A DNA stretch of 64,000 nt from Amoebophrya sp. A120 (taxonomy: Eukaryota > Protista > Dinoflagellata), in NCBI GenBank assembly GCA_905178155.1, contig CAJINV010000003.1:11458733-11522732 (forward strand). The letters run 5' to 3'. The notes beneath the pieces were generated by a model. The model made no database searches and was not told the origin of the DNA. It saw only the letters and a list, made by a program, of their open reading frames with translations. A program made the position numbers and the translations under genes. Positions 14,698-62,530 of the stretch are shown here, one piece after another. The first letter of the stretch is position 1. Every line of letters begins with the position of its first letter.

Positions 14698-17600
14698 CTA
14701 ATTTATGGGGTGAGCAGGGCGATTTTCCTCAAGATACTCTACCTCCGTTCTCTTCTTCCCTTGTACTACGATCGGCAAACCAATCTTCTTCCTCCTCAGA
14801 TTCGCGAGGCCCCCATGCGGCACCAAAAAACTCTGGCTCCTCGGGCACCGCAGATGCGGCCTGGCGGATCTCAGCGTCATTCTTTCCCGTTGTGCCCCCA
14901 CTTCTTCTTGTTGCCTCTCTGACAGAGTCGCGCAACCTTTGTTCACCATCTTGTTCCGGGGTAAGTAGATTTGATGCGTTTTGGGCTGCATGGCCATCTT
15001 TCGACTTTTCGGACAAGAGCGCCTCCTCGTGGAGGTAGGTAGTACCCGCTTGCCTACCCCCGGCGGCGTCCTCGGCAAACGTGACGCGCTCGCCGCGACG
15101 GCGCGCCCGCCAGTCGTTCCGCCTCCGTGCGTCGTCTTGCTGTGCCGCTGTGTGGTCCACACCAGCCTCGGCGACATTTATCCGCTGCGCGGTCTGCTTT
15201 TTCGCCGAAGTTAGGCCGCTTCCTTGTTCCACTGCTGCTCCTGCAGTCGTATCTCGCGGGGCCGCAGTGTCGCGCGTGCCCGTCGAAAGATCTTGACCGC
15301 GGCGATCCGCAGAAGTAGTTCGTTGCAGAACACAAGCAGGCACCCTGGCGCCGTAAAGCTTGGCCTCGCGCTGTAGGCGGAGTACGGTCGTTGCGGGAAG
15401 CGAAATATCCTGTGTAAAAGCGGGGCCCACGCTCCATATTTGTCACGCAGCACATCTAAGCATGTCTGAGATGTTACTCATGCGCGCTGCGGCTGCCCTA
15501 TGAGAGGCATAATTTTCCGCGTTTTTTTAATAGAATTCGTCGGGCTATAATCAGGATGCGATATTCCACTTGCGACGCAACGGCACTACTTAGCGAGCCC
15601 AAGAAACTTGTGATGCAGAACAACTACCAAACCTTGTTGATTCATGTACTTTCCATCTTGACTATGAGAGGGTGGGAACGTGCTTGCTGAGGGTACGGAA
15701 ACTATCCCAGAGAAAAACAAAAAACTGGCAGGAACCCCCCCCATATCATCTGATGTAATGCAAAAACAAAGAAATAGGCACAAAGAGAACCTCTCATGAG
15801 CACCAGGTCATAGCATGGCGTTTCGACGGCTATGCAAAACTTTAACTTTTTGTGTAAAATATCTTTGAGTTGTAAATAAGTATCCCTGCGAGCTTTCTTT
15901 CCCTGGGATAAAAGCGCGGTGCGTTCCGCCTCCGGAACATGATCTTGGAACTGCTCACGCGTTATCACAAAGAAAAGCTCATTCACATCCTCCTAGTACC
16001 AGAATGCGAAGAAGATTGCGTCACCAAAATGGCGCCAGCACAAACAACTATGGAGACGGCTCTTGTCATACAAAGCACAACGTGTATTATTAATGCGCGA
16101 AACCCAACATCACAAACCCAACATCACCAGAAGGGTGCTGGACGAAAAGAAGCTGCCGCGCTTGTCTTTCATTTTGTGATGCTCAAAAAACGAGTTCTTT
16201 TCCCAACATACATGGAGGTACATGGGAGGTGCTGCGTCCTTTTCTCTAGAATAGGCACCCCCGTCTGCAAGAAGTTCAAGAAGGCCGCGGTGCCGACCCG
16301 TTCCCGTGGGTCAACGGCAAACAGAGCGTGCACGGCGACTTCCAGTGGGTCGGAAACTTCCCCGCTCGGCGTGCGGTACTATCCTGTGCAAAAGTATCGT
16401 AGTCGTACTAATTGCAATCATGCATGTTTCTTAGCAAAATCAGCATTACAAATTCCATTTTTCCTTCTGGAAAAATTTGTAATGCGAGTTATACTAGTAC
16501 GATAGTTTTGCAATGCATAGGTACTTGGCGCCCACAATAGCGAGTGAGCTCTGGTCCTGGAACGGGTGAAACCCAAAGCACAGCATAAACAGAACGCAGC
16601 CCAGATCCCACAGATCCACCTGCGTGGAGATGGGCCAGCCCCGGTGTAGATCGATCAACTCCGGTGGCTATCAAATGCAAAAATGTCTGGGTCTGGAAGA
16701 GTGCGCGATTTGTCATGCAGCTTTTCCATGACCCATGAGGTCTGGAATGCAGGACCTAGCATGACAGATTCCGCGCGATCTCTCTCATGCCTATCCTGCA
16801 TGAGACACTCCCTCGCGACTTGGTCAAAACTGGACGACTTTTGGTAATCTATCACGCAACACAGATTTTTGCATGCTTCAGATTTAGCATGACAAGTTGC
16901 ATTCTCCCAGACCCAAACATTTTTACATTTGATAGTGGCCGGTAGCTCAGCGTGGTCGTGCGAGCGATTTCGTCTTCGAGCTGAGCCAGCCGCTGCTTGC
17001 TCAGCGTGGTACCCGGATCCGCGATTTCTTCGTCTGACCAAGAGCCGAAGTCGCAGAGTTTCAGCACCATTGTATCAAGAGCAAAATAAATCCCCCCAGA
17101 CTCAAAAGCGTGCCTGCTCAGGTGCGTCGCTGACTTCGCGTCGGCAAATGCCTTCGTTTTGCATCATGGGAACGCGGATACTTTACTCGTTCGCTTTGCG
17201 GTCTTTCTCCTTTTCGCAATGCTCAGCGATGGCAAGACCAAAATAGAAGATACAGTCCTGCTGCATACCTCTGAGGGCCTACTAGAGTCATATATCTATA
17301 TGCCTGCAATCCCCTCTTCCAGCAAAAGATTTTCCAGTCGCAAATCCAGCATCAGAGGACCGACACCTAGCTTTGAGTATGCAGGAACGAGACGTGGGAT
17401 TTTACAATGCAATACACGCCCCCAAAAAATGTGTATCACGATGAGGACAGACCCTCCTTTACAGTCGTCTCGCAGCACCGGCTTTCTTGCTAGAACAAAA
17501 TCTACTCCGAATTGCAAAACAGAAACGCCAGGGCGCTGTGTCGCACTCCAGTCTCGGCAATTTGTGTTTGCACTCCAGTCTCGGCAGTAAGTAGCTCCCA

Positions 17601-21678: not shown

Positions 21679-24600
21679 TCAACTGACGTCCATCGGCGCG
21701 GGCCCATTGCCCATGACCGCCGAAGAGCTTGCAGCGCCGGCCCCGCCTCCGCTCACGCTGACCGACTGTCGGTTCGCGGTTTGCGTCGCCTGTAAAAACG
21801 CGGCTTCTCTTATCAAAAGGAAAAATCCCCCGTCCCCATATCGAAGAGGAAATCTGTGATGCTGGATCTGCGTACACAAATCAGCTTGGTCTTGCAGTAG
21901 AGAACTGCACGCAGATCGCAGGCCTAGGTAGGAGCCTTTTGGTGCAGGCGCCTAGCAACATGGTAGGCGGCCGCCCTGTAGAAGTCCTTACAGCGTTACA
22001 AATCGCCTGCATAACGCAGCGGAGAGCCTGCGCTTGGCTTCCTGCAAGACAGGCACGATTTGTGGTCTCAAATCTGCATCGCAAATTTTCAGACGGATGC
22101 GTTTTCAGTTTCACTATGGAGCGGGGGGATTTTCCCTTGCCATATCCCTTCTCGCGCCCTGGTTCTGCACTTCTATTCTCCGGGCCTTCTGCCTTGCCTG
22201 TAATCTTGCGATGTACTCTCTCTGCGTTTCTTCTTTCGTCGGCGTTTTCAAAACCTGCTTGATGGTTTCCTCGTCCAGCTTTTTCCTCTTCGCATTCTTC
22301 GGTGAATTATGCATTGCAAATATGTCTGGGTTTGGATGGATGCGAACTTGTGCTGCGCATTTCACAACGCCCACAAATCTTCTCATGCATTTGCATAGAC
22401 AGCAAACGATGGCCATTTCCTGTCCCCCCTAATGGGGGGATCTGTCATGCGGATTCGGCATTGCGAAAGCTTGTCGAAATCTATGATGCTAGGGCTTCCA
22501 TGATAGACCTTCTGTGTCATGCAAAAACAGCATGACAGACAAACTCGCGCACTCATCCAGACCCAGACATATTTGCATTTGATATGAATCCTCGGAGTCC
22601 GAATCCGGAACGTCTTCCTTTTTGATTTCCTGTTTTCGCCTTTTCGCCGCCAGGTTTTTTCTTCTCGTGACGTCTTCGCGGGACAACGCTTTGCCTTTCT
22701 TATTCGTTTTGGAGAGCCTCTGCTCCTCTTCCCGCAGGATTTTGTCTTTCGCGTCGAGTTCGGAAAGCGTTTTCACCAGGTCGTCCAGGTCTCGGGTCCA
22801 GATCTCTTCCGGCGCGGTCTTTTCGAGCGTGTTCACCTCGCGCTCTTTCTCTTCGAACTGCCCGCCTGTTGTGTTGGGAAATTAAGATGATGTACAGTAA
22901 CGAAGACTCTATATTCAAAATGAAAATTTAAACTGAGATACAAACTGCATGAAAAAAAATTCTGCATCTTCCCGCTTAACTCAAATACATGATGAAGATC
23001 ATATACATGCTTAACCACGACAAACAAGCCAAGCGCACACATCCACGGAGGTGGAGCCAAGCAAAGTTACTATGTATTAGTATTAGCGACCAAAATCTCA
23101 ACATCAAATAAATTCTTCAATACGCAGTTCCGCCGCCTTTTCCTGCGTAAGGCTCCAGAGCGTCATGCTGAGCAGGTACTCGTACCCCTGCCCGTGACCT
23201 CCGCCAGCAGCCGCACCAGCCGCCTGCCCCTCGTTCTCCTGCTCTTCTAACTGTTCCGCAACTCCGTGCGACGTGAATTCGTCGAAGTATTTTGCGTTGA
23301 TCGCCCGTTTGGTCAAAAAGCCCTTCTCGTGTAATTCCGCGAGAAGTTTATCCTTCTTTTTCTTCGCGACGATCAGGCTTCCCTCGATGACCATCTCGAT
23401 AAACCGCACTTTCTGTCGCAAAATCTCGCACTCGCGCCGTAATTTCACCAGCAAGTTCTTCTTCCTCTTGTGGTAATACTCCAATCGCACGGGGCAAAAC
23501 GCCTTCACGATGTCCAACGCCTCCTCGTACCGTTTGATATTCCCCTCGGGCGACCACAGCACCAGATTCTGGCAGGAAAGGCTGGTGGTTAACCGGAAGT
23601 AGTTCATCAATCCCTTGTCCTGCGCCTTTTCCAGTTGCGCTTCGTTCAATGTGATGACGAAGTGCACGGTCGATTCTGTGTGGTACTCCCGGAAGTCTTG
23701 GATCAGCGCCTTGCTCGCGTCGTCCTGCGCCGCCGGGAGCATCTTTTGCAGTTGCTCCTTGTAATCCTGCGTCCATTTTTTGATCGGCAGTTCCTTAATC
23801 GTCACCGTGTTCCCGCTGACCAAAATCGTGCCCTTTACCTCGTAGGCTTTCTTCTCCTCGGACATTTGGATCTCGCCCTTGAAATTCCGGTACCAGGGTT
23901 CGATGTTTTTCGGGAAGGGTTTTTTTGTCAAGTAGGCTTTCACGCAGTTGATCAGATCTCTTGGATTGTAGTTCGGCACGAAGGTTGACCACCCGGTACC
24001 AATCCCCTCGGCGCCGTTGCACAAAACCATGGGGATGATCGGATAGTAGTTTTTCGGCTCAATTTTCTGCCCATCGTCGTCCTGATACTCCAACAGCGCG
24101 TCGTCGTCTGGGTGGTAGATTTTCCGCGCCACCGGGTCGAGCCTCGTGAAGATGTAACGCGCACTCGCCGCGTCCTTCCCGCCTTGCAACCGTGTACCGA
24201 ACTGACCGGAGGGGACCAGCAAATTCACGTTATTGCTCCCGACGAAGTCCTGCGCCATGTTCACGATGGTACCCTGCAGGGAGACCTCGCCGTGGTGGTA
24301 GGCCGCGTGTTCCGAAACGTAACCGGACAATTGGGCGACTTTGACGTCCTTGGTTAACTTTCGCTTGAAGCAGGAGAAGAGAACTTTGCGCTGCGAGGGC
24401 TTCAACCCGTCCATCAAGTTCGGAATCATGCGGTAGATGTCGTACTTGCAGAACAGCACGTATTCCTTGTCGATGAAGTCTTTGTAGGAAACAGACGGCT
24501 GCGTGTGGTCGACGTACTCCCCCTCGACGTGCTGCATCATCCAGTCTTTTCGATCGTCCGCGCGCTTCTTGTTGAAGGCCAGGTCCAAAGCCTCCCCCGT

Positions 24601-27348
24601 GCCCTCGGACCAGTCGAAGGTCATGCCATGGTCCTCAATGTTGCGGAAGTACTCCTTTGCCTCTTTGGACGTGGACGTACCCAGACCCTTGTAGTACCTG
24701 ATAGATGATCATGTGTGAAACAAATATGCAATGCAAATTTACAGTACACTTTGACGTAGTACACAAAGCGTCACAAACTTTATTCCGAACTTCAATCATA
24801 ACTTTAACTACGCTTGTCATGCTGAAAGAAAAAGAATAGCATGGTACACGGTAGAAAACATGCGTCATGCAGAATAAGCAACATGAGAATTATCCCAAAA
24901 ATACTTCATGTTCCATCCCTTCCCGTTGTTGTTCAGTTGCTTCCACGCTTCGTACTCCCCCACGGTGAAAAAGCTCTTTTTCACTCCGCTTTTCTCCACC
25001 TTCACAATCGGCGTGATGAACTCCCGCACGAACCCGGGCAATTTGAGCAGGTTCGGAAACCAGTGCTCCAGTAAGTTGAGAAACAAGCCCTTGATGTGCG
25101 ACCCGTCGAAATCCTGATCCGCCATGATCATGATGGAGCCGTAGCGTAACCCCTTCGTGTCCGCCCGGTCGTTGTCCCGGATGTCCAGCTATGCATTGCA
25201 AAAGTATCGTACTAGTATAAATCGCAATACAAATTTTGGCAAGAAGAAAAGTGGAATTTGTAATGCTGTTTTACCTTAGGCAGGAGATTTGTCATGCATC
25301 TTTGCAATTAGTACGACTACGATACTTTTGCACAGGATACCAGCCCGATGATCTTCATCACGTTCTGGATCTATCCTGAGTAAAAACGTACCCACGCCAG
25401 AGCTGTAATTCAGATTTGCAAAGACAGGAAGACTTGTAATGCGCATCCCCATGAGAGCCATTTTCGATCGTGTTTTGGAATTTGTGATGCTGTGAACAGG
25501 ATGAGCAGATGAATCTGTGATGCGGCTGCACTTGCTAACCTGAACTACACTGCAGAGTGCAACTTGTCATGCGTGACTCACAAAGCCCCTAGGTTTGTGT
25601 TGCAAAATCCCCATCCGGACTCCGGTGTGGGTACGTTTTCACTCAGGATAGGATCTCCTCGTTCTTCATCACCGCCTGGTGCGTCGCTTCTCGCACGTTC
25701 AACGGTTTTCCCTTCAGCGGGAAGACCCCAAACTTGTCCCGGCCCACCACCGACAACCCGGCGACCGCGAGCGCTTTCGCGGAGTCTCCCTCGGTCAGGA
25801 TGAGCGTGCAGTCTTCCGAATCCTTCCCGCCCGCGTCGTTCGCGTCCTCCAACTTCGGAATGCCGACCAGCCTTTTCACGTTCTTCGCCTTCACCTGCCG
25901 GCCCAAATCGATCTTCTCCTTTGCCTTCGCCCACTGCATGATCAAGTCGCAGACCCCGGATTTCAGCACCAGGTCGTCGAATTTCTTCGAAATTTTACAC
26001 ACAGACCCGAACTTGGACTGGTTCGTTTTCATGGTCTCCTTCGTTTGCGAGTCGAACGCCGGGTTCTCGATCAGACTGTTCACAAAGACCATCAGATGGT
26101 TCCGGATGTGCGCGGGCTTGATGTCCATCCCGGACTTATTCTCCTTGTTCACCTTCTTACTGATCGTCTCCACCAGCTGGTCGGTTACATGCGCCACGTG
26201 CGTCCCGCCCTTCAGCGTGTTGATGGAATTGACAAACGACACTTGCTGAAACTGCCCGCTGTCGGAGATCGACATAGCGATTTCCCACCGCTCCCCGCAC
26301 TTCTCGTAGATCTTCACGGTTCCGCTCTCGTCGGAGGACGCGGCGGACGCGGCGTCGGCGCCGGGCAGATACAGGTCCACGTAGTCCTTGAAGCTTTTCA
26401 CCGGTATGGGCTCGTCGTTGTAATAAACCTTCACTTTTTCGTTCGTCGTGCCCGCAATGTCGTACACGCGCCGTTCGAACAGCGCCACGATGTCCTTGTC
26501 CAGCTTCTTCATCCCGAATTTCTGCAGGTCCGGGTAGAACGTGACGATCGTGTGCGAGGTTTTGCTCGGATGGGAATCCACCCCGATTTTCTGAATGTCC
26601 GGCTTGCCCTTCGTGTGCATGTTATCCAGAAATTCCTGGTAGTACAGCTTCTTCGTCTTCCAGTCGCAACACTCGATCGTGAACTTCGTGCTGAAAATGT
26701 TCGCGAGCTTCGCGCCGTACCCGTTCCTTCCGCCGACGACTTTCTTCTCGCTGTCGTCGTAGTTGTCGGAAGTGAGCAGGTGGCCGAACACCATCTCCGG
26801 GACGTAGACCTTGTGGGTTTGGTGCATTTGGACCGGGAGCGTCGCACCGTCGTTTTTTATCCGGATCATGTTCTGCTCGACGTCGACCCAAACCCGGACT
26901 TCCGACATGGATTTGTCCCGCTGAAAGTTATCCGCGGCATTCACCAATATCTCGTCGAATATCTTGTACAGCGCGGGCACGTACGAAATTTGCTTCTGCT
27001 CGAAAATCTGTAGTTGAGGATTTTTTCTTTTATTTGTTGTTCATATCTATATCATGTCATAGATTTTAGAATGTACTTGAAGTTGAACTACAACGTCGAG
27101 CACTTAAAAAATATCACGGCGAATCAACAGGAATAGCAGCGCGAAGGGATAGAGATTGTCGTGTCTCCATCGAAATAAGGTACTATCCATACTAGTACCC
27201 CCGTCGTTTTGTTTCTGACATGGATCTTCTCACTCGTGGCTTCCGTAGACCCGACGTAACTATCCGGACGAAGGAGGATGTGCTCCAGCTGCGTTTTCTT
27301 CTGGTAGCGCTCCTCGATCGTCTTTTCATCTCGCGACTTCGGCGGCAT
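21679..27348 (-). CDS. TOP2: DNA topoisomerase II (8 exons; possible N-terminal extension to 27822)
   Basis: QLEHILLRPDSYVGS, GGRNGYGAKL, TEGDSA, PLKGK, IMADQD, YYKGLGTS, DGLKPSQRK, AYHHGE, SARYIFT. GT-AG introns at 27008-27198, 24698-24904 and 22866-23123, plus four introners. Confidence 0.97.
21811..22144. mobile_element. Introner family D (334 bp) in the TOP2 C-terminal tail
   Basis: TIR TATCAAAAGGAAAAATCCCCCG / CGGGGGGATTTTCCCTTGCCATA; TSD TCTCT/TCCCT; removal joins GARR-EAAFL. Related to 51756-52100. Confidence 0.85.
22308..22584. mobile_element. Introner family A (277 bp) in TOP2
   Basis: TIR TATGCATTGCAAATATGTCTGGG / CCCAGACATATTTGCATTTGATA; TSD TGAAT; removal gives DSEDS-PKNAK. Confidence 0.92.
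25190..25339. mobile_element. Introner family B (150 bp) in the TOP2 TOPRIM domain
   Basis: TIR TATGCATTGCAAAAGTATCGTA / TACGATACTTTTGCACAGGATA; TSD CCAGC; removal gives KIIGL-DIRD...LRYG. Confidence 0.93.
25372..25650. mobile_element. Introner family C (279 bp) in the TOP2 TOPRIM domain
   Basis: TIR TATCCTGAGTAAAAACGTACCCAC / GTGGGTACGTTTTCACTCAGGATA; TSD GGATC; removal gives KNEEI-QNVMK. Inverted homologue of 43324-43602. Confidence 0.95.
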
Positions 27349-29960: not shown

Positions 29961-32900
29961 TCACTTCCTGCTTTGGTTCATGGACTGCATCCCGCTTTTT
30001 GGCATGCCGGACTGCATTCCAGACTCCGGAATCGCGGACATAGGCACACTGCCACCCGCCCCAAAAGACTGTCCTCCCGGAATATTAATCGGCATCTGGC
30101 TCAACTTGTCCGATCGGATATCCAACGTGTTTCCGCCGCGTGGCTGCACGACTATCGACGCGTTTTCATCGATGCCGCCCATTCCACCAGCTCCTCCTCC
30201 TTGCGGCTTCTGGATGCCAAAGTTCGAAACAAAAGCGGAACCGTTGATCGCCGCCTTTCCCTTTCCCTTCTGCCCGGGAGCGATAGATTGGATGTAGGTG
30301 TTCGGCATCGCAGCCGCATTTGGGAGCACTCCCGCGACAGATCTCGCGTCCAACGTGTTACCCCCCGCGCGGGACTGCACGACGGATGGCTCGATGACAG
30401 ACTCATTATTCGAAGAACTCACGGTGGACTGCTTTATCGACCCGGTCGCAGACCCCGGCTGCGAACCCGGACCTCCACGCTGGGACGCAGTTTTGTTGGA
30501 CAGTTTGATTGCACCTCCAACGGTCGCGGCACTGCGGGCACTACTAGAAGTACTTGCGTCAAAAGCCTGGGAATGCTGCTGCTGTTTAAGCGATTTAGCG
30601 GAATTCAACCGCTTGATGCCGCCGTAGCTGGAGATTGCACCGGCGCTGATTCTATCTTCTTCGGCACCTTTCACTTCCTCCATACCCGACATGGGCGCAA
30701 TTCCGCTGCCCATGCCGAGATTCTGTGATGCGGATCGCGGCGCACCGGTTTCTGGGTCCACGTTTTGTGAAGTAGACTGTTGGACAAAGCTGTTCGCCCC
30801 GTTCTGCTGACTGGCCATCATCGAAGCGACTTTCGAGCCGGTCTTGGATTGAATGCCGCTCTGCTGCTGCTGCGACAGAGCTCGCTTGGACTGCTGCGCC
30901 GGGCTGCCGATACCACCGGTGCCGGAACCCATAGTGGCAGAAGCACCAGCAGCATCAGCTCCGGTCGGAGACATGGACCCACCAGTACTGTCGCCCGCGT
31001 AGTAGTTGCCTGAAACAGTAGAAGCATTTTGCTGTTGCGACATCTTTTGGGCAGAAGTGGTGGCATTAAAATCATCGACAACCGAACCTGGCGCAGCGAC
31101 GCTGCCGTTCTTGACCGACCCCGGCTGAGTTGCGCTGCCTTTTCCGCTCACAATAGCATCACCTTGCCCTCCCGACATGTTACTTCTATTCCCTCTGATA
31201 CTACCCAGCAGTGTTGGGTAAAAACTGTCAGCACCGCCAGCAGCAACTACCGCGCTTTGATGTTGTTCCTTCTTATCGTACTTCGACGCCTGCTGACTGC
31301 CCGGCACCTGCGCGGAGTGGCTCATGATCACTTCCCCAGCCGATTCCAAAGCGACATTCCTCTTGGTGATCCTTTGCGTCAGATTCGGCCTCTCTTCCCG
31401 TTTGCCCTCGTCCTGGTAATCTTCACAATACGCCCGGTCCATTCGGTCCACCAGTCTTTCTGCCTGTTCCGTGTCGAAGAGTAGGAAAACTTCCTTTCCC
31501 TTCGGCAGCCGCATAGCCAAATACACCGCATTCCCGTCCGCGTCCCATTCTACCAAATGGTGTCCGCGCGCGGCGGAAAACCCGACTTTCGCGACCTCCT
31601 GCCCGTTATCAAATGCAAAAGTGTCTGGGTCTGGAAGATTCTGAGACTTGTCATGCACGTTTTGCACCTAGAAAACCAAAGCGACACAAAGACCTTTTTT
31701 TTTTTGGCTCGGACCCCCCACCCGCCTCAGCGATCTCGGATGTGAGTGTGCCCAGTCATGCGCAAAACCTGAAGAAGACATGACCAAAAAAAAACTTGGA
31801 TGCTGCGGAGTCGCATGGAAAACAGAAAACTCCGAGCGGGCAACATCGCACATGCGCGACCGGCGGAAACGAGAAGTAGGGAACAAGGGTGTCTAGTAAG
31901 GAGGAATGCAGGCCTCCCCCCCGTAGGGTTGAAACTGGTGAAAGTGGAATAGTGCGACAGGCTTAAGATACTACGCGTCCAAGTCAGTGCGAGTCGCAGC
32001 AGCGCTAGATAAAACGGTCCCGGCCCGAATCTGGCGAACCACCAGGGGCTACAGGGTAGAAGAAAAGCGGGAGTGCAGGCCCTTAAGTTAGTGCTTGACG
32101 CGGAGATAACAGCAGCCGGATAAAATGTGATCGGGGCTGGGAACCGGAGTGCAGGCCGGGGCACCAGCATACTAAGGGAGCGCGAAAAAAAGGAAGTCGA
32201 GGAGTGCAGGCCTCGAGCGAGTAAAATAGGTCCGCGGCTGTCTGTGCCTAGAGTGAGATAAATGTTAGCGACTAAGTAACTATCATGAAGCATCTATCTA
32301 CCCACCCCGATCAGTCCGCTGGCAAGACGGAAAAAAAACATCTGCCCCTGCAAGCCATGCGGGATCCGCCACCTAGCGCTACAAGGATTCCAGAAGTAAG
32401 CGAGACGACAAGAAGGAAGACCTCGAGGAACCATCCACAACCAAGAACCTTGGAAAAGTGGGCCATGATGTCTGTGATGCATGCCCTAGCATCACAGACT
32501 TTTTGAGGGCTTTGCCATACCTATTCCGCATGAAAAATGCCCTCTCCGCGTAGCCAAAATTGCATTCCCTTTGCTGGTCATGCACTACAGATTTTTTTGG
32601 AATCCAAATGCAGCATCACAAGTTCGGATTCTTCCAGACCCAGACATTTTTGCATTTGGTACCCGTAGGACTTGTCCCCCTGCGTGTTGTTAAAGAACGT
32701 GACCGAGGAAATCGACACGCAGCAGAGCAAATCTAGCTGCGCCATGTCCACCAACGGCTGCCGGACCTTCCCCTGCGACAGCTTCGCGATCACCTGCTTC
32801 GACTCTTCCGACTCCAACTCCGCGCGCGACCGCTGACGGCCGACAAACTGTCGGGTCGCGAAAGCCTTCAAACGTTGCAGCGACTTTAACAAAACCGCGG

Positions 32901-35900
32901 CGCGGGCGAGGTGGCTCGTTCCGGCGTTCTCCAACACGTGATTCAAATACAGCTCGGACATGATCATCTTCCGCCAGTCGACCGGCGACCTTCGCCCGAT
33001 CTGCTGCGCTGGGAGCAAAAACTTCAGCGTGTTTTCGTTCGCGACGAACTGCTTCGTCTGCCGCGCGCGCGTCTATCAAATGTAAAAATGTCTGGGTCTG
33101 GAAGACTGCCAGGTTTGCGTTTGTGTTGCATATTCTGCATCAGCCACGAAGCCCTGTAATGCACGGCCTAGCATCACAGATTTTTAGAAGGCTTTGTGAT
33201 GCCTATTCCGCATGAGAGATATTACCCTCTCCACGTGGCACAAACTGGCCTCGTCTTGAGCTGGTCATGCAACACAGATTTGTTTAGAATTGACCGACAG
33301 CATCACAAGTTGGATCCTTCCAAACCCAGACACTTTTACACTTGATAGCGTCAGGTAGACCGCGATCTGCGCCGCGATCCAGGCCAGTTTGTGTTCGTTT
33401 TCCGGCACGTGGTACTTATAACCTGCTCAGGTGTTACTATCTCAATAAACATTGCAATAGAATCTGGAATTTGTGTTGCAAGAAGTGCATGATCTACCCT
33501 ACTCCCACAGGATTACGCATGACAAGTTCTGGTGTCCCAATCCGCACTACAATCTGGCGAAATTTGTATTGCAGAAAGTGGAATGCTGTCCGAGTCTATC
33601 ATGTTGATCATGCAAGACAGATCTCAGATTCTATTGTAACGTTTGAGATTGTAACGTTTGAGCAGGTCATAGTACTCGAGCAAGTACTCTTGTAACGCTT
33701 GTTCCACGGTCAAACAGGTGAAGACCATGTCCACCGTGGACACCACCTCCCTGGGCTTGATGAACCTCCGCTTGAACATCAGCTCCAACTGCGGCTCTTT
33801 CTTCAGCATGGGGATTAAATTCTTGTTGTTCGACAACGGTTCCGCGTGCCCCGTGCGGAAGAGCGAGAACTCGCTCTGGTTCGTCGACAGCGAGTGCTGC
33901 GTCGCGGTCCGCAGGGCCACGTCCTGGGCGGTCATGAGATCCTTCAGGTCGTCCAGAGCGACGAGCTTCGGTTTCCGCGGTTTGCACGTGGCGTCCAGCC
34001 GGGCCGTTTGCTCCCGGATGTCAAACCCCTCCATGGACCACACCTGGACCGTCAAACCGTCGCCTGACTTATGGTGCACCTCCGTCGTGTTTCCGGCCGT
34101 CGCATCGTACTTGGTCATGCTGTCCCAGCACGCGTTCTGCACCGCCAGGAGCATCTTTCTCCCGTCCTCCGGCAAATTTTCCACCTCCGGCGTTTCCGTT
34201 TTGTCGATGCTGTTCAGGATGAAGGCCCGCACGTACTCGATGAAATTAGCCTGCGGAGGCACCTGGTTTAACAGGTGCTGCATCAACTTCCACCCGAGCA
34301 GCTTGGAGCGGAGGCCCGGGTTGTTGGTCAGTTGCTTCATGATCATGGCGTACACCTCGTTGGTCAAGAATTCGTCGTTTTTTGCCTTGTGGATAATTGT
34401 GAAGGCGAGGGGCGCGCGGCGCTTGTTATCCACCGGGTGGTCGCACATCCAGGCACACAGGTTCTTGAAGATGTTCATGGCCGCGTCGGTCAGCTGCGTG
34501 TTCGGCAGGTTGGTCAAAGACCCCGGGATCTTGTACCTGATACAGTAAAAGACGATGGCACTTTTGGTTTATAATTTGCGTAAGCAGTTATAGATTTGCT
34601 GTGGACGAAGATCATGAAAAAGTCGAAGAGCTGTTAGAAAAAAAGAAGTTTATATGCCTAGTCACAACTCATGCAATCATGAAAAGCAAAGTTGAAGCAT
34701 GAAGAAGAAGATCGTGATCGGAAGATCATGCAAATATAAATACTTGGTCCACGAGCAGGCCCCGAGGGGGTCGAGCGGGTCCACCTTCGTTCCGTCCCTC
34801 TTGTATCGGGTTTTCACGGTTGTCGTGTTGATGATCGGCGCCAGGTCCCACCTGGAAAACAGAATCTGCCCCACTTCGCGGGTCTCGTCGTCCTTGTCCT
34901 TCCCGACAAACATCGACCCGAAGGCCGCGTTCGCCGTCTTTTTCAAGGTTTTGGAGATGGAAGTGGTCTCCGTGGCCGCCACGCCGGCTTTTTCCGCCGC
35001 CGCAACGAGATTCGTGGACGCTTTGAGGAGTTTGGTCGTTTGGTTCTCCGTCAGATCCTGGTTGTGCAGCAACCTTTCCACGTTCTTCATCAGTTCCGCC
35101 CGGACGTACTCCGCGTTCATCAAGTTCGACAGCATTTCCTCCGCCGGCCGCAGATCCTTCGCGTCGATCCCGTTTTCGATTCCGTACTGGTAGATAATCT
35201 GGATGCGCGGGCCGTCGTAGACTTCCAGCGCGTCTTCCAGCTGAATCAGCGCGTCCGCGGCGTCGGTGATGGTCAGCCGCATGGATTTGCTGGGTTTCAG
35301 GCTGGCCATCTTTTCCGACACCCGCGCCGCCTTCCCCTCGTTGGTCGACTCCGCCAGGCGCTGCGACTTCTTCTTCTCGAACTCCGCCTTGATCGTGGCG
35401 ACCTTCAGGGGATCCATGCCCGACTGGGCACACACCATGGCGAGCGCGCTGTCCAGCTGTTCTTTTTCTTCCGCGGCGGTTTGCTTCGCGTTCTCCAGCT
35501 CCGCGAGCTGGTCCGAACCTTCCGGAAGGGTATTGATCACCTCGTCCAGTTGGGCCACCGTCTCTTCCTTCGCGTCGATGGCCTCGTGCAGATTCTCCAC
35601 CAAGGACATGCTCAAACTGTCCCCCGCCTGCAGCAGGCTGTTCGCACCCTCCAGCGCGGTTTGCCCGCGTTGCATGTTGCCCGCAGCCAGGTCGAGCTGC
35701 TCCTTGTTGTCCGCCATCGAGAAGCTCATCTCGCCCATGCGGTCGCCGGCCCCGGAGGAGGTCGCGAGGACCGCAGCGACAATGGCGGCGGCTTCGGCCG
35801 CGTTGGCCGCGTCGCGGGAAGAGGTGCCGTCTGGAATAATTTTGGACCGTTTGTATTTGATGAATTTCAAAATAGTATATGAATCGTCTACATGTTGCGC

Positions 35901-38900
35901 AACAACATCGAAAATCTCAGACAAAGGAATATGAGTTTAAGCTAGATCGAAGCAAGTGACAAGGACAACTTCAAATGGCAGGAGCTGCGTACGATGATAG
36001 AAGAAGCAAACTTTTATCTTTATACCGGAGGGCGGCCCAGCCTCGAATTTCGCCAAGACTTCCTTGACCGTGACGTACAGAGCGAAGCCAGTTTTGTCCA
36101 ACCAGGCTTGTTCCTGCGCCAAGCCCGCGTTTTCCACGCCCGCAACCATATCCTGGTACATGACGTGCACTTCCGCACCCGCGTCGTACGGCAGCGGCGG
36201 CAGCGCCTGCATGCCCTTCAACAGCGGCGCCTCCCTGGCCAGCGCGTCCGCCCGCTTTTCAAGCTTCTGCGAGAAGTCGTTGTCGATCTTCAAGGCCTTC
36301 AACGTGGAAACGGCGTTCTTCACGTCCATCACATCGAACGAAGTCATCAACTCATCCGCCCTCTGCATCACAGACAATTCCTTCTTCAGCGCCTCCACCG
36401 TCGGGCCAAAGTTGTCCGGCGCGACGCGGAGATCGGTGGAACGGTTCGCCACATCGAGCCAAAGCGACAACTGCGCGAGCGCCGCCACGATCCCCTCGCA
36501 GCCCCCGAGCAAGGCCATGCCGTCCTTCCCCGGCGCAGCGTACAGCGGGTAGGTGGCGAGCCACTTTTGGATCGCCTTTCTGGTTTCGCGCGCAACCTTG
36601 ACGCGCTTGCGCGCCCGGTACCCCCGGAACACCTTCTGGATGAGGATGGCCTTCGCGACCTTCGCGATCCGCGCCTGCTCGTCTAACGCCGCGTGCCCCT
36701 TCTGCTTCGCCATCACCTTCGTCTTGCCCATGTGGTACTGGCCCTTCAGGTCCGGCATGCTGAACGCACCCGGCAGGCCGTCCAGGATGATCTTCACCCC
36801 CGCCGCAGAGGTGAGACCCCCGGCGTTTTGCGCCTGCTTCTGCAGGTTCAGCGGGATGCAGACCCGGTAGCGGCGGAAGAAGTCCTCCGGCAGCGCGCGG
36901 TACGGGTAGCCGGCCTGGCGGATCCGCACCGCCTCGATCACACCGGAGTTGGTCAGCTGCTCCAGCGCCATCGGCGGGGTGAAAATCTGCGCCTTCTTCT
37001 CGCTGTTCGGCTTGATGCACCGGACGAAGTGTGGCTGGGACTGGTAGATCACCGCCATGAGGTCCCTCAGGGAGGCGCGGAACTGCTGGGACACAGTGAT
37101 TTTCTTCTGCCTCTCCTCCTCGCTCATCTTCTCGAAGATCTGCACCATCACCAGGTTGTTGCACGTCTTCAGAATATCCAGCGCTTCCGGCGGCGGCTCG
37201 TCCTTGTTCTTGATCTGCGCCCACCCCTGCACGTCGTAGGTCACCGGTCCGGCGTAGTGCTGCAGGGTGAACTGCGGCTTGTTGAAGCGGTCCAACGTCA
37301 AATATTTGTTGTCCTTCATGTTGGTCCGCAGTTGGTTCATGAACACCTCGTCCGTCGCCTTGATGTTTTTCGTGGTGCCGTCCAGGTAGAAGAAAATCGA
37401 GTTCTGCTGCCCGCCGATCGTGTCCAGAATCTCCTGGTTGTCCTCGAACTTGAAGTCGTCCGTCGGGACCCCCTCCGCCTCGTAGTCCCGCATCTCCGCC
37501 TTGAAAATGTAATCGTTGAAGTGTTGCTGCAGGTTCTCGTTCGACAGGTTGATCGTGATCTGCTCCCACGTGTTAAATTCGAAGGACTCGAACCCCGCGA
37601 TGTCCAACATGCCAATCTCCTTCGTCTTCCCACTGGTGTTCCTCGAGGTCGTCGTCGTTGTTCCCTGGATCGCGCCGTTCAAAAACGCCACCAGCCACTG
37701 GAAGATCTTATGGGTTGTAAAAGTGTCTGGGTCTGGAAACTTGTGATGCTGGGCGGCGAATCATGAAGAGGCCACAAGTGCTGGCTCAGCATGACAAGCT
37801 TTTGAGCTTCTAGGTGTTGGCTATTCTGCATGACAAACTGCGTTTCTGCATGGCAGCAAAATGGGGCTCATCTTGGGTAACGTGCATGACAGATTTAAGA
37901 GTCACGCCACACAAGCATGACAAACATGCACTCTTCCAGACCCAGACACTTTTGCACTTGATAGATCTTCGAGTAGTACAAGGTGGCGAGCGACTTGCGA
38001 CTGGACTTCGCGTCTTCCAGTTTCAAAGCCTTCATCGTGACTTCTTTGCCGATGGTGAGTTTCTTGTTGCAGATCGCGTCGATCAGCACCGTCGGGTCGC
38101 ACTCCCAGACGTCGCACACCGCTTGCAGCGTCGCCATGTTGTCGCACTTGCTCGTGTCGTTCCCGCCGTCGGCAAGGGCCACGTTCCCGAGCAGGAGCAC
38201 GCCCGCGGTGGCGCGGAGTAAGGCCGTGGAGACCTCGGACGACATGGTGGTGTCCTGGCAGGCGGCGAGCACCTCGCCCAACTCCTTTTTGTCGTCCCAG
38301 CCGTCGGCCGTGGCGGCGGAGTTCTGCAGGTGGAAGTAATCCGTGTTTTTATTACTGCTGAGTCCGTACTTCTTCGGGTCCTGGAGCATCATGTGGAAGA
38401 TGTGGAAGCTGCGTTCCGGCTGGTTCTGCGACACCGCGCGGGATTTCTCCAGCAGGTAATCGATCAACCCCGCCCCCTCGATCTCGTTCGCCATGGAAAA
38501 GTGCAGCGCCGTCCACTTCCCGAACCGGGACGAGTTGTTGTTCCTCGAGGTCTTGGCGTTCCCGAAGGCTTCGAGGAGCGGGTTGCACTGCATGATGCGA
38601 TCCTGAATCCCGGAGTTGCTGGCCGCGGACTGCGTGAAGTAGTGGAGCAAAATCTTACAGTTTTCCGTCTTCCCCGCGCCGGACTCCCCTGAAATCAAAA
38701 TCGCTTGGTCCTTGTTTTCGTACAACCCCATCATGGCGTTCTTCGAGATGCAGTACACGTGCGGGGGCATTTCCCGGGGGTCCGAGCAGTTTTCGTAGCG
38801 GGAGACAGCCTCCGCGTCGTACAGGCCGGGGATCACGGCGAAGGGGTTCACGGAAATGATCACGTCGTCCACCTTGGTGTAAATCTGGTTCTGCTTGTAG

Positions 38901-42758: not shown

Positions 42759-44129
42759 CTACAGGGGCTGACTCGGCAATCCGTCCCCGTAGGTGTAGTC
42801 TTCGTGCGTACCACTCTCCTTGATCACCATCGTCCTCACCACCCCACCGGAACTCCCGTCCCGTGTCATGGCGTGGGAAACCCACTTTTTGCACTTCGCC
42901 CTGGCCTCCTCCTCCGTCATTCCCGGTTTGTACTCCGCATCGATTAAACCCATGATGTAAGCGCTACCAGACCCGCCGACCGCGTACCCTCGTCTGAACT
43001 TCGCACCGCCCAAGGGGATCACGTACACCTGTTGATTTTCATCTTTGCATTTATCTTTATGAAAACACACTTAAACTTATAACAAGTACAAGAGATAAAA
43101 TAAATGGGAAACTACATGCAATACGAACGCGTTTCTTTGCCCTTGTACTAGCACCGCAATACAAATTTTCAAATTATTTTTACCTGTCCCCCATGCACCT
43201 TATCGTACCCTGCGACGATCAGTCCGGCCATCAGGTGATCTTTGTTGTTATAAACCAACTGCTGGAACAAAGTCGCACACGTATTCACCTTCGGAAACTT
43301 CGGATCTTTCAGTTCCATCGAGTTATCGTGAGGAAAAACATCCCCACCCCAGAGTCAGGATGGGGATTTTGCAATACAAGCCTAGAACTTTTGGGGGTCA
43401 CGCATCACAAGTTGCAGTCCGTAGTGTAGTGCAGGTTCGCAAGGCCAGCTGCATCAGAAATCCATCTGGTCATCCTGTTTACAGCATTACAAATTCCAAA
43501 ACACGACTAAAAATGCCTCTCCTGGCGATGCGCATTACAAATGTTCCTGTCATTGCAAATCTGCATGACAACCCTGCTGTGGGGACGTTTTTAATTAGGA
43601 TACGAGTGCAGGCCCAGGTAGTGCTGCACATACCCGGTCAATGCCTGTGTGTCCGCCGCGGAACCGGACCGGCACACAAAAATGCGGTCGTGGACGGGAG
43701 TGATTTTACCTGATCATGTGAGAATTTCAATATAGCATTCTTCTCATTACACTTGGAATCCATACTATGCCTGACACAAGAAATCACTGCGCATGTCGAA
43801 ATGACATGACAGAGTTTTATTGCCTCTACATCTAGTACCGTAGGTACTACAACAACTTATTTTAGAGTTCTATCATTTCAAATACGGCTGACGCGATTTG
43901 CGACGTAGTCGCCCATGGAGGTTCTGGAGTCCGCCGCCATCACGACGCCCCCGTCAAACTCGACGGCCATAATGGTGGTTCCCGTGCTGACCCCCTTCTC
44001 GGCCGACATGATGTCGTCCTCCCGGTAGGGGCAGCCGTCGCCATTCTCCGCTGGTTCGAACCTCTCGCCGGAATCGTCGGCTTGGTGCCGCTTTACCAAG
44101 TCCGAAAGAGGGTCGAAAAATTCGGGCAT
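42759..44129 (-). CDS. PSMB6: 20S proteasome subunit beta1 (PSMB6/Pre3)
   Basis: Propeptide cleavage VSTG|[50 protein letters not shown] introns at 43710-43885 and 43029-43183, plus one introner. Confidence 0.93.
43324..43602. mobile_element. Introner family C (279 bp) in proteasome beta1
   Basis: TIR TATCGTGAGGAAAAACATCCCCAC / GTGGGGACGTTTTTAATTAGGATA; TSD CGAGT; removal gives YLGLHS-MELKD. Confidence 0.93.
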
Positions 44130-49239: not shown

Positions 49240-52200
49240 TGATAGCTACTTCTCCCGACGCACCACTACATCAACCCCCACCCCTCCCGTCCCTCCGGGG
49301 TTTGGCGCCAGCGGAAGTGTATGTGGGGTCGGAACCCAAATTCAAACGTCACCGCCTCGTCCAAATGCGGCACTTGAAGGTTTTTCGCGGAAAACCGGGT
49401 CGCCTCGTGTTGGTACCCAAATTCTTGGAACTATCAAATGTAAAAATGTCTGGGTCTGGGAACTTGTGATGCTGCGTAGCGTCTCATGATGAGGCTACAA
49501 ATGCTGGCTCAGCATGACAAGTTTCTGAGCTCCTAGGTGTTATCTATTCTGCATGACAAACTGCGCTTCTGCATCACAGAAAAACGCAGCTCTTGGGTAA
49601 CGTGCATGACAGATTTAAGAGTCATGCCAGACAAGCATGACAAACATGAATTCTTCCAGACCCAGACATTTTTACAGTTGATAGAAACATGTGGTACGCA
49701 AAAGGGAGCTGCCGCTTCAGGTACCAGCCCTGCGTCGCCGCCAGGTCTTCCAACCGCCACTGCTTGTACAGTTCCGTCGTCTTCAGCGTTATGTGCACCC
49801 GGGTTTGCGAGGTGATCAAGTCGGAGATGGGCACGTTTTTGGAGGACGAAGAAGGCAGAGCAGGTTGTTTGTTTGTCATCGTGCAGCACTTGGTCATCGA
49901 AGCGAAAACGTCAAACAGGGCGGCTTGGTTGCTCTGAATCGATTTGTCCTTTTGATACCAATCGAACTTCGCGAGCCTTCGTCCCGTCACCTCGTCGAAG
50001 TAAGCGCCTTGCTTCACACCCGTGTGCGGAAAATATGAGAGTTGACAACTCGAACTTCTCCCCTTAGTTCCACCCCTCATTTGACGCGCATGTCTTCTAG
50101 GAACAGAAACCATGTGAATGAAATATGCAACAAGAGGAGCTCCTTCTGCATGGCAAATCCGCGGTGGCGGGGCTGTAGTGCTGCTCAAGCACAAGCCTCA
50201 AGCTGCGCCGGGACTTGTTGTGCAGTAGTATATCGTTCTGCTAAAGACAGACAGCACACACGAAAAAATTATAGCATTTTGCATCGCAAATGAGGGACGC
50301 CGAGGGGGAGTACTAGTTGTAAGTTGTCCACTATCATAGAAAATTCCAAATCACGTAAGTGAAGGACGTGATGTTCTTCTCGAGGGCTTTCATTGTCGCA
50401 GAACGACTGGAAAAAGAGGCTCTCGTGGTGTTCAAGTTCATCCTTTTGGAAAGAGCTACTTCCACCTCACTTTGCTTGACCAGGTCCAGAGAATGTAACA
50501 TTGTCGCGTCAATTGCCCGGTCCTTCACCACGTAGCCGCCGTATTTTTCGACGATGTCCGCGCAAATTTTCGCCGACATCCGCAACGTCAAACTGTCTTC
50601 GAAATTCTGTTCTCCATCGCTGCTGCTCCCGGAGTCATCATCGACGTCCTCCTCCCCTGCTGCCTGTCCGAACGTCCGGTCCTTCCAGAACAGGTCACTT
50701 CTAGTACTACTTGAAGCTGCACCGGGCCGCTGTCCGGCGCTAGTAGCAGTGCCATTTTTGGCCGAGGAAGGCCTCGTCGCCCCGACCAGATTGGAAAACA
50801 ACATCGCCACCGCCGGACTCTGTTGCGGCGGGGGTGCGGGCTCTGCTCTTGTCTGCGGTGAGATTTTCGCTTTTTTCGCTTGCTTCAGTTTATTTTTCCG
50901 AGTCTTCTTCTCTTCCGTACGCTGGCGTTTTCTGTCCTTCGCGCCGAGCACGCAGCCCTGGTCTCCGAGTTTCTCGTAGTCTTGGGTATGGGTGTGTCAG
51001 GAGGGGGGAAATGGTATTAGTGAGAATCGATCTCGATGTGAGTACTGTGGTGCACGAAGTGCCCAGATATAGTACCCAAGCCGCGTAACATCAAATGCAT
51101 CCCCGAGTGCAAATAAGTAGCGGGGAGACACAGATACGTACTGCCTGTCAGGAAGCAGAGGCAAGCGCGCCCGCTCATACAACGCCAGGTTGGACTCACG
51201 GATGAACAAAGTGTTTGAAAATTATAGCATGAAACAAGCGCCGCCATTTTCCCGAAACAGGATGACGAAATGACTCTACGCAGCCGCGTGGAAAGATACG
51301 TGCATTGCCACGCACCACTTAGAAGAAATGTCAAGCCTTGGAAGAACCTGTACCGGCGTCAACTTCTTGTCTTCATCTGGAAACATTACTACTTCTTTAT
51401 TCTACAGCAACATTTTGATTTTCCACATTTTCCCCCTGATGAAGTTGGCCGTTCCATAGGTAAACGAGTCTGTGTACCCCGTCGCCGTTATCCCACTGCA
51501 ATTCCTCTTCCCCAAAAATCGGCAAAGGGCTCCGGCGAACGTGAAATTGGCTTCACCCACCAGGAGAATCCGGTCCCGGGCGGAGTAGGGGGGCAGCGGT
51601 CGCGGGGCCTGCCACTTCGCGGACCCCGCCGCGCTGGCGCAGTGGACCTCGTGGGCGAGCTTCTGGTTTTGGAAGGCAACCAGGTGGGCCAGGGTTGCGG
51701 AATTGGCCGCCCTCTCCCCGAGGTCGTTGCTGTACCTAGATTCGAACAGGGCGTGTATCAAAGTGAAAAAAGCCCCCTCGTCCCCATATCGAAAATAAAC
51801 GCACCACAAGCAAAATTGTTTTGCTGATTTGTGTACGCAAATGCGTTTGTATCACTATTGCATACTTGGGAAGGTGAAGCAAGAGCGAAGCGACGCACTG
51901 GGCAGGCCATCTTTGATGCGCTTTAGCCTACAGCAGCAACATCTATTATGCTGAAGAGCCAGACCTCTACTATGGACCTAAACAGGCCTAGCATGCGCTT
52001 GCGCTTCGTTTCTGCAAGACAGAGCTGATTTGTGACCACAAATCTGCATCACAGATTTCCGCTTTCTTGATATGGGGAGGGGAGATTTTTCCTCACAATA
52101 GCGTGCTTCCGCTCCTCATCATCGGGAAATACGCGGAACAGGCGGGGATGGACACGAAGGTCCTGCTGCTCGCCGGTCGACTTGGTTATGGTTTGTTCCT

Positions 52201-54609: not shown

Positions 54610-54756
54610 GTGCTGCGGCGTAGCGATTGCCCGGCGATCATGTGGAGGCGTCGGTGGACGCGCTCAGGTGCCCGGAAACGAAAATCATTCCCCAGTGAAA
54701 TCAACCAAAATTTTCCGGTGAGCTATTCTATTGGGAGGTTCCGAGCCATGGCATAT

Positions 54757-62015: not shown

Positions 62016-62530
62016 GACCAGGGCCCCAGTCGTGTCTCAGAATCTGGCGTCCCGGAATCTGGTGCGCCGGCGTCTGGATCTGGAAGAGTTGGGGCGTCGC
62101 TCTACGTACAAAAAAAGCACAGCTCGACTTTCATAGTGACAATTTGAGATGTCTCTCGTTAGCACTTTGAGCTGCATCCCTGTCCACTCAAGAAGTGCTT
62201 TTGCTGGGAAACATTTCGAATACAAACGGCGCCCGTCGGTCGTGGCGTCTGACTGTGCTTCTTTATTTTTCATTTCATGACTCGGCGGCAGCTGTCGCTA
62301 CTTGGCGTACCTCCTGGCCCGATGCTAGGACCTACATGTCATGACATGCGTACTTGGTGGCCCAGATACGCTGGTAGACAGCTCCGGTTCCGGCCGCGCC
62401 TCGCCGTGTACCAGATTCCGGGACGCCGTTCAGTCCGTAGGGGCCCCAGTCCGTAGGGGCCCTGGTCCTGGGGGCCCTGGTCCTGGGGGCCCTGGTCCTG
62501 GGGGCCCTGGTCTGAGCAGGGGCCCTGGTC
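62016..62530. mobile_element. TA-flanked MITE / fold-back element
   Basis: Perfect inverted repeat GTAGACCAGGGCCCC (62013-62027 / 62519-62533, including TA flanks); inner 18-bp IR 62046-62063 / 62410-62427; 15-bp tandem copies of the TIR at 62456-62531. Confidence 0.7.

What the first reader, a model, noticed from the sequence alone, without database searches (positions are those of the whole stretch)
31667..32458. Nested insert in an introner with four hairpins sharing a U1A-like loop
Seen: this family-A copy is 1055 bp against 252-277 bp for its siblings. The extra ~790 bp holds four stem-loops with a near-invariant 8-nt loop and differing but paired stems: GGAGG-AATGCAGG-CCTCC (31900), GGG-AGTGCAGG-CCC (32069), CCGG-AGTGCAGG-CCGG (32144), TCGAGG-AGTGCAGG-CCTCGA (32197). 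On the transcribed minus strand the motif reads CCUGCACUCC (one copy CCUGCAUUCC). Branch-point-like GCTAAC/ACTAAC/ACTGAC motifs, repeated TTTTATC..GCTGCTG, several T7-9 runs and an A11 tract near the 3' end also occur. Established: U1 snRNA stem-loop II, bound by U1A, has the loop AUUGCACUCC. Inference: an undescribed structured RNA or mobile element with multiple U1A/U2B''-type sites, possibly a divergent snRNA-like factor or decoy linked to non-canonical splicing.
Basis: partly seen in the sequence, partly recalled or inferred. Interest (0 to 1): 0.8.

Follow-up and report, generated by a model that had tools for sequence, protein, structure and literature searches.

The report
Hairpin cargo inside a jumping intron
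An intron-forming mobile element in a myosin gene carries extra repeated DNA, likely a pasted-in copy of an RNA, whose four hairpins are real but lack the standard U1A-binding sequence, so it is probably passenger DNA rather than the missing U1 splicing RNA.

Summary
A 1055-bp introner with terminal inverted repeats (TIRs) carries about 790 extra bases with GGCCUGCAYUCC four times (0 of 1000 shuffles reach four). The four stems differ yet pair (P about 2.5e-4). A probable RNA contig joins the myosin exons across the whole 1060-nt intron. The extra DNA is layered and repeated. A 721-nt segment ending in A10 sits between 7-nt direct repeats, and one contig shows the empty form. Diverged versions occur in the same run. 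A 94%-identical copy at another locus (L032) has 361 more bases and two 78-nt tandem repeats. The U1 reading fails its tests: no Rfam match, no ACUUAC, AUUGCAC or Sm site. All four loops lack U1A's essential A1. Hairpin 3's loop is mutated in 2 of 2 other copies, and the branch-like motifs are not conserved. Best reading (0.45): a retroposed, A-tailed copy of a multi-copy RNA that then travelled with the introner. Close rival (0.33): retained interior of a longer parent transposon. The hairpins are likely binding sites of an unknown protein. A donor that is the undetected U1-like RNA is unlikely (0.06) but not excluded.

The parts
31602..32661 (-). Whole introner removed as one 1060-nt intron; 5-nt direct repeat at the ends (cut site ambiguous by 5 nt, one register reads GT..GG)
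   Evidence: X4 contig of 7457 nt joins 31601>32662; reading frame continuous across the joint
32462..32661 (-). Left arm of the family-A introner including the TIR (32613-32661), rich in GCAT[GC]AC subterminal motifs
31607..31666 (-). Right arm of the introner including the TIR (31607-31656); end reads TAT+7 nt+AAA on the plus strand
32419..32461 (-). 43-nt remnant of a 78-nt unit that stands twice in tandem in L032; also found in short forms that lack the 721-nt segment
   Evidence: loose ends at 32417 in X1 and X5
32417..32423 (-). 7-nt direct repeat, upstream copy (AGGTCTT); likely target-site duplication
   Evidence: joint 31688>32417 with 7 letters fitting either side
31706..32416 (-). 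Body of the A-tailed segment, non-coding; 361 nt shorter at its 5' side than in L032
32197..32216 (-). Hairpin 1, 6-bp stem (5 bp in L032), loop CCUGCACU
32144..32159 (-). Hairpin 2, 4-bp stem, loop CCUGCACU; identical in L032
32069..32082 (-). Hairpin 3, 3-bp stem; the loop A at 32074 is G in L032 and U in X1 record 6
31900..31917 (-). Hairpin 4, 5-bp stem, loop CCUGCAUU; same in L032 apart from one more G in the flanking G run
31798..31862 (.). Interior block shared with the most variant contigs (three contigs with C>T at 31833 besides the exact form)
31696..31705 (-). A10 tract abutting the downstream direct repeat (A8 in L032); likely poly(A) tail
31689..31695 (-). 7-nt direct repeat, downstream copy (AGGTCTT)
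31667..31688 (-). Subterminal sequence shared with L032 and, in diverged form, with the short forms
32662..33072 (-). Upstream exon of the host myosin gene (MyTH4 at 33627-34568, motor and IQ at 35940-37760; same transcript inferred from the contig length)
29964..31601 (-). Downstream exon, low-complexity tail without Pfam hit

Best explanation
The extra DNA is repeated cargo inside a TIR introner: a 721-nt A-tailed segment between 7-nt direct repeats, likely pasted in by retroposition from a multi-copy non-coding RNA and probably copied onward with the introner. Steps: (1) shown: a short form without the segment exists at other loci. (2) Inferred: a reverse transcriptase of a non-LTR element inserted an A-tailed RNA copy of at least 1080 nt at AGGTCTT and duplicated the site. 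(3) Shown: the same arm plus interior stands at a second locus with other exon flanks (L032); inferred: the TIR arms moved the compound element. (4) Inferred: internal deletions, one at a CTT microhomology, shortened this copy. (5) Shown, if X4 is RNA: the whole 1060 nt are spliced out, so the cargo does not reach the mRNA. (6) Inferred: the four hairpins were binding sites for a single-strand-binding protein in the donor RNA, most likely in a retroelement's untranslated region. They are not standard U1A sites and at least hairpin 3 is decaying.
For: Empty form: one X1 contig skips 31689-32416 with 7 letters fitting both sides. Loose ends at 32417 in X1 and X5 read as right-arm subterminal sequence joined directly to the 78-nt-repeat remnant. 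Of 28 exact direct repeats of 7 nt or more in the element, only this one abuts an A run. Multi-copy: 16 of 25 X1 records laid on the insert are under 99% alike. Three versions overlap at 32300-32394, and record 6 differs by 32 letters and 5 gaps over 31906-32171. L032 is 94% alike over 829 nt, has a different exon flank and 361 extra bases. Two X1 contigs leave the window at 32419 with letters that match L032's extra bases. The insert has 1 GCAT[GC]AC arm motif in 792 nt against 3-7 per sibling. Non-coding: frameshifting indels against L032 and no Pfam hit at cut-off in 7 frames. Conserved loop with variable paired stems points to single-strand recognition. Non-LTR retrotransposons are reported in Amoebophrya (PMC7789003, passage).
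Against: No copy of the segment outside introner arms was seen; no genome is held. In L032 the upstream junction matches the 7-nt repeat at only 5 of 7 letters. Interior blocks, not the 3' end, collect the most variant contigs, which is not what 5'-truncated retrocopies usually give (own knowledge). A 7-nt repeat is equally a deletion microhomology. The empty-form joint rests on one contig with 21 letters on its short side. No donor RNA or reverse transcriptase was identified. No protein partner was tested.
Confidence: 0.45

Rival explanations
1. The extra DNA is the retained interior of a longer parent TIR transposon. The ~260-nt, ~330-nt, 1055-nt and >1810-nt forms are an internal-deletion series, the 7-nt repeat is a deletion microhomology, and the hairpins are cis-elements of the parent.
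For: L032 shares the arm and interior and goes on for 1811 nt without meeting a left TIR. The window's copy starts in the middle of a 78-nt repeat unit and lacks 361 nt that L032 and two X1 contigs have. A sibling arm holds a similar GGTCCTGCATTCC. Long members of short A120 TIR introner families are tabulated (PMC12130899, supplementary file 8, 21 of 58 rows seen). Ds-del and Ds2 are the model (PMC3260210, passages).
Against: The only A run of 8 or more abuts the breakpoint exactly. No transposase or other Pfam hit in the part of L032 held. PMC7789003 (section 16) reports no transposase in A120.
Confidence: 0.33
2. The donor is a long, divergent U1-like snRNA or a decoy RNA for U1A/U2B''-type RRM proteins, carried in multi-copy introners and acting in non-canonical splicing.
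For: U1 was not detected in A25 or A120, yet U1-70K, U1A, U1C and U2B are listed (PMC7789003, sections 10 and 36, Table S6 rows). Four loops share UGCAY with U1 stem-loop II and have covarying stems. A CUUAC lies about 17 nt inside the 5' end of the segment in this copy. Yeast U1 shows that U1 can lose the standard site (PMC6325900, passage).
Against: No Rfam U1/U2 match down to E 10 in the insert or L032. ACUUAC, AUUGCAC/G and RAU3-6GR occur 0 times on either strand. A1 is missing in 4 of 4 loops, and A6 of hairpin 3 is changed in 2 of 2 other copies. The single GAUCAC is changed in both other copies. The U tract before the 3' hairpin is not kept in the loose-end letters of two paralogues. 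No excess folding. Sibling copies of 252-278 nt lack the hairpins, and the 6 other 8-nt NNUGCAYN hairpins in the window have unrelated loops.
Confidence: 0.08
3. The 728-nt segment is a nested GT-AG intron (a twintron) inserted at an AG|GT site and spliced before the outer introner.
For: The skipped stretch can be read GT..AG on the minus strand ('CT..AC, cut +5'). Three RCTRAC motifs against 0.33 expected.
Against: The joined forms have flanks that differ from this locus, so they are paralogues and not its spliced product. The acceptor follows an A run, not pyrimidines. The RCTRAC motifs lie about 290-580 nt from that acceptor and are each changed in another copy.
Confidence: 0.07
4. The segment is a retrocopy of the 3' UTR of an mRNA for an RNA-binding protein, and the hairpins are autoregulatory sites, as in the U1A pre-mRNA.
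For: A tail, U-rich tracts, three TTTGTATGA repeats in L032's extra bases. U1A binds its own pre-mRNA (PMC2203988, passage).
Against: No coding sequence upstream in L032. Several diverged versions suit a repeat better than one gene.
Confidence: 0.05

Closest known systems
Amoebophrya A120 introner elements (PMC7789003; TIR-DNA introner families in PMC12130899)
   Same: Inverted repeats at both ends, TAT+7 nt+AAA terminus, 5-nt direct repeat, non-canonical splice ends, many copies, removed from the mRNA
   Different: Four times the modal length, with layered cargo (78-nt repeat remnant, A-tailed segment between 7-nt repeats, four hairpins); I found no description of such cargo in the sections and supplements read
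Maize Ds2 / Ds-l4 and Ds-del elements (PMC3260210)
   Same: Non-autonomous TIR elements with common ends and variable filler, deleted or captured interior
   Different: Here the element is an intron; no autonomous parent or transposase was found
U1 snRNA stem-loop II bound by U1A (PMC2203988)
   Same: UGCAC in a hairpin loop; UGCACUCC identical over 8 nt in three copies
   Different: CC replaces AU at loop positions 1-2; the loop is 8 nt with the final CC paired; four copies; none of the other U1 features
Retroposed A-tailed insertions by non-LTR elements (SINEs, snRNA retrocopies, processed 3' UTRs; recalled, no call)
   Same: A tract directly before a short direct repeat; empty form exists; variable 5' extent
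   Different: No tRNA head, T runs on the A-tailed strand argue against Pol III, no free-standing copy shown, interior more widely shared than the 3' end

Membership tests
Amoebophrya-type TIR introner | Terminal inverted repeats; A120-type TAT+7 nt+AAA end | tested here: met
   50-nt arms, 88%; signature at 6 of 6 ends checked; definition in PMC7789003 section 11
Amoebophrya-type TIR introner | 3-5 nt direct repeat at the exon borders | tested here: met
   5 letters fit either side of the joint
Amoebophrya-type TIR introner | Repeated, and spliced from the mRNA | tested here: met
   siblings in the window; X4 contig joins 31601>32662 (X4 being RNA is the tool's guess)
U1 snRNA | Match to a U1 covariance model | tested here: not met
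   no U1/U2 row at gathering score or at E<=10
U1 snRNA | 5' ACUUAC that pairs with the donor site (motif recalled) | tested here: not met
   0 on either strand of the insert and of L032; only CUUAC
U1 snRNA | U1A site AUUGCAC in a hairpin loop | tested here: not met
   0 matches; loops are CCUGCAY
U1 snRNA | Sm site RAU3-6GR before a 3' hairpin (motif recalled) | tested here: not met
   0 matches on either strand
U1 snRNA | U1-70K loop GAUCAC (motif recalled), conserved | tested here: not met
   one copy at 32127-32132, changed in L032 and in X1 record 6
U1 snRNA | Discrete, capped, Sm-bound abundant RNA | not testable with these tools
   only contigs were available for the matching strain
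Retroposed (TPRT-type) insertion | 3' A tail abutting a short direct repeat | tested here: met
   A10 plus 7-nt repeat; 1 of 28 repeats abuts an A run; in L032 the upstream copy matches at 5 of 7
Retroposed (TPRT-type) insertion | Empty site | tested here: met
   at paralogous loci: one contig joint and two loose ends
Retroposed (TPRT-type) insertion | Independent copies at unrelated sites with their own duplications | not testable with these tools
   no genome held
tRNA-derived SINE | tRNA-like head and no internal Pol III stop | tested here: not met
   ARAGORN 0 genes; T8, T7 and T9 runs on the A-tailed strand
Internal-deletion series of a TIR transposon | Common ends with nested interiors of different length | tested here: met
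   ~260, ~330, 1055 and >1810 nt forms
Internal-deletion series of a TIR transposon | Autonomous parent with transposase | tested here: inconclusive
   none in the 1811 nt of L032 held; its far end was not fetched
Self-cleaving ribozyme or self-splicing intron | Rfam match or catalytic core motif | tested here: not met
   crude HDV-like descriptor 0 hits (no positive control run); one hammerhead-core word match on the plus strand lacks stem II by inspection and is absent from L032

The most novel reading that the evidence does not exclude
The A-tailed segment derives from the long-sought, undetected U1-like RNA of Amoebophrya: a multi-copy, extended RNA whose four CCUGCAY hairpins bind a co-evolved U1A/U2B'' RRM, and which has been captured and spread inside the very introners whose non-canonical splicing it serves.
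Probability: 0.06. Interest if true: 0.9.

Novelty: new variant of a known kind. Interest (0 to 1): 0.3.

Why it matters
In the likely case this is a modest point. Amoebophrya-type introners tolerate and spread kilobase-scale layered cargo and still splice cleanly, and L032 leads towards a longer parent or donor for a family whose mobilising enzyme is unknown. The four hairpins with a fixed loop and covarying stems mark a real but unassigned single-strand recognition motif. If the donor were the missing U1-like RNA, it would resolve an open question in a genome where over 60% of introns are non-canonical (PMC7789003), but the features tested here speak against that.

Tried and rejected
No whole genome is held, so copies could not be counted directly, and the rest of L032's contig (about 1370 nt on the open side) was not available. 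Summed contig depth (about 30 where one version lies, up to 470 at 32424-32450) is only a hint and was not used as copy number. Expression: no RNA holder listed. Contigs of the guessed-RNA runs X4-X6 touch parts of the insert at depth 2-7 beside 420 for the spliced mRNA contig, but contigs cannot show RNA level, so this counts neither way. Raw RNA run X8 put 0 of 96 laid reads on the interior of the insert (bins 31700-32440) and 0 on the exons, so it is uninformative. X7 (marine plankton metagenome) has one 151-nt piece at depth 2. Two-motif scans: viral 0 loci; metagenome 40 loci, 1 homologous, 39 unrelated and mostly tandem repeats; prokaryote genomes 15 loci, none homologous. Other pattern scans: TIR word 38 viral loci, all alike over at most 30 nt; blocks 0 hits; hairpin-4 word 1 chance hit. 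blastn against phages: none. The 188-codon open frame (31727-32293) is broken by indels in L032 and has no Pfam hit at cut-off. Whether hairpins 2 and 4 are intact in X1/X4 paralogues cannot be read: differences near contig ends were not listed (3 of 32 for record 6). Recalled look-alikes dismissed for lack of context: metal response element TGCRCNC, Alu/7SL fragments, spliced-leader relic, telomerase template, iron-responsive element. TIR and hairpin words were not found in 13 of 14 supplementary files of PMC12130899 (cells over 400 characters are cut), nor the TIR word in the supplement text of PMC7789003, whose figures S14-S25 are images I could not see. Paper searches listed no report of an Amoebophrya U1 or of this cargo; the library lacks most subscription papers. 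The protein atlas did not answer, so the organism is inferred from the introner signature only. Three look-ups of earlier findings were empty.

Full report
Setting. The element lies in a minus-strand myosin gene (motor and IQ at 35940-37760, MyTH4 at 33627-34568). Six of six family ends checked read TAT+7 nt+AAA, the signature given for Amoebophrya A120 introners (PMC7789003, section 11). The organism is therefore inferred to be Amoebophrya or a close relative; no tool named it. A 7457-nt contig of run X4 (RNA by the tool's guess) matches both exons without a difference and joins 31601 to 32662. The whole 1060 nt are thus removed and the frame continues.

Observation. The element is 1055 bp between TIR ends against 252-278 nt for five siblings. 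GGCCTGCAYTCC occurs four times on the minus strand. None of 1000 shuffles gives four copies of any 12-mer family. The stems extend 4, 2, 1 and 3 Watson-Crick pairs beyond the shared core. This is the best of 24 flank permutations, and P=2.5e-4 for random flanks; hairpins 1 and 4 share two of those pairs, so the independent signal is somewhat smaller. The same 12-mer in 59 unrelated contexts extends by 0 in 46 and never by more than 2. Over the eight hairpins of the window and L032 (6 distinct), the first pair outside the core is AU, GC or CG and always paired; 1 of 500 shuffles reaches the covariation score (the tool warns this is not a probability, and the structure was taken from these sequences). 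A fixed loop with variable paired stems is the pattern of single-strand recognition (inference). The insert as a whole is not unusually structured (z +0.22 and +1.27; L032 windows over the shared part -0.9 to +2.2 on the minus strand). Rfam gives nothing at gathering score and only weak unrelated rows to E 10.

The insert is repeated and layered. Of 25 X1 contigs laid on 31668-32457, 16 are under 99% alike. Three versions overlap at 32300-32394, and record 6 differs by 32 letters and 5 gaps over 31906-32171. X1 may be the source of the window, so it shows paralogues, not independent support. One contig skips 31689-32416 with seven letters (AGGTCTT on the minus strand) fitting either side, and loose ends in X1 and X5 show further short forms. 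An A10 tract lies directly before the downstream copy of that repeat, the only one of 28 such repeats in the element to abut an A run. A metagenome scan gave 40 loci, one homologous. L032 is 94% alike over 829 nt, shares the right arm and has a different exon flank. It carries 361 more bases where the window joins 32420 to 32419, then two 78-nt tandem repeats of which the window keeps 43 nt, then about 550 nt that do not match the left arm. Two X1 contigs leave the window at 32419 with L032's extra letters. So the forms run about 260, about 330, 1055 and over 1810 nt. Indels against L032 break every long frame and Pfam finds nothing at cut-off.

What other copies do to the motifs. In L032 hairpins 2 and 4 are unchanged, hairpin 1 loses its outer pair, and the loop A of hairpin 3 is G. 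In X1 record 6 the same A is U, while a neighbouring change at 32083 adds a stem pair. In record 6 hairpin 3 holds 1 of the 29 listed substitutions against 2.0 expected, which shows neither conservation nor its absence. Both branch-like motifs that record 6 covers are changed, and the third is changed in L032. Contigs with diverged flanks still align over 31896-31931, a hint that hairpin 4 is better kept, but their letters there were not listed. No compensatory change between orthologous hairpins was seen.

The U1 question. It is a fair question: U1 was not detected in A25 or A120, while U1-70K, U1A, U1C and U2B are listed (PMC7789003, sections 10, 16 and 36 and Table S6 rows). But human U1A selects AUUGCAC with 87-100% conservation per site, and A1G and A6G cost 5.0 and 6.8 kcal/mol (PMC2203988, passages). 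All four loops begin CC, and A6 of hairpin 3 varies freely. ACUUAC, AUUGCAC/G and an Sm site are absent on both strands of the insert and of L032 (the ACUUAC, Sm and U1-70K motifs are recalled). The single GAUCAC is changed in both other copies. A diverged RRM could read a diverged loop, and yeast U1 lacks the standard site (PMC6325900, passage). The idea is therefore unlikely, not excluded. Expression could not be judged from contigs.

Mechanism. I commit, at 0.45, to retroposition of an A-tailed, multi-copy non-coding RNA into a ~330-nt introner subfamily, followed by copying of the compound element through its TIR arms and by internal deletion. The A tail, the flanking repeat and the empty form are seen; the enzyme, the donor and the order of events are inferred. 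The close rival (0.33) makes the same DNA the interior of a long parent transposon eroded by microhomology deletions, as in maize Ds (PMC3260210, passages); long members of short A120 families are on record (PMC12130899, passages and 21 of 58 rows of supplementary file 8). Both agree that this is passenger DNA in a spliced mobile intron (together about 0.8). In either case the hairpins are likely protein-binding sites of the donor or parent, with an unknown partner.

Verdict. Real feature, new variant of a known kind, interest 0.3. What keeps it above routine is the unexplained hairpin motif and the small chance that it leads to the missing U1-like RNA.

Noticed in passing
window 53384-54612: Palindromic satellite or foldback-like array built from a 73-nt unit with higher-order periods.
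   Followed up: no
window 16742-16754 (sibling introner 16669-16934): The sibling's left arm holds GGTCCTGCATTCC, close to hairpin 4's core, so the motif may be related to the arms' subterminal repeats.
   Followed up: partly
L032 1480-2466: Beyond the shared part: three TTTGTATGA repeats, two 78-nt tandem repeats (95% alike), and the only windows with fold z of -2 to -3 (1731-1830, 1931-2110 on the minus strand; 2171-2310 on the plus strand); no left TIR reached.
   Followed up: partly
window 16380-16520 / 25189-25339, 25372-25650 / 43324-43602, 21818-21925 / 51984-52093: Further repeat families, 77-82% alike between copies, probably other introners.
   Followed up: no
window 33412-33675: A second TIR pair (264 nt span) about 60 nt from the family-A copy at 33074-33350, leaving a very short stretch of myosin coding sequence between two introners.
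   Followed up: no
window 62440-62530: 15-nt GC-rich tandem repeat, about five copies.
   Followed up: no
window 31603-31640: Raw RNA run X8 holds the family-A TIR at 90-95% identity with other flanks but not the myosin exons, so a different strain may share this introner family.
   Followed up: no
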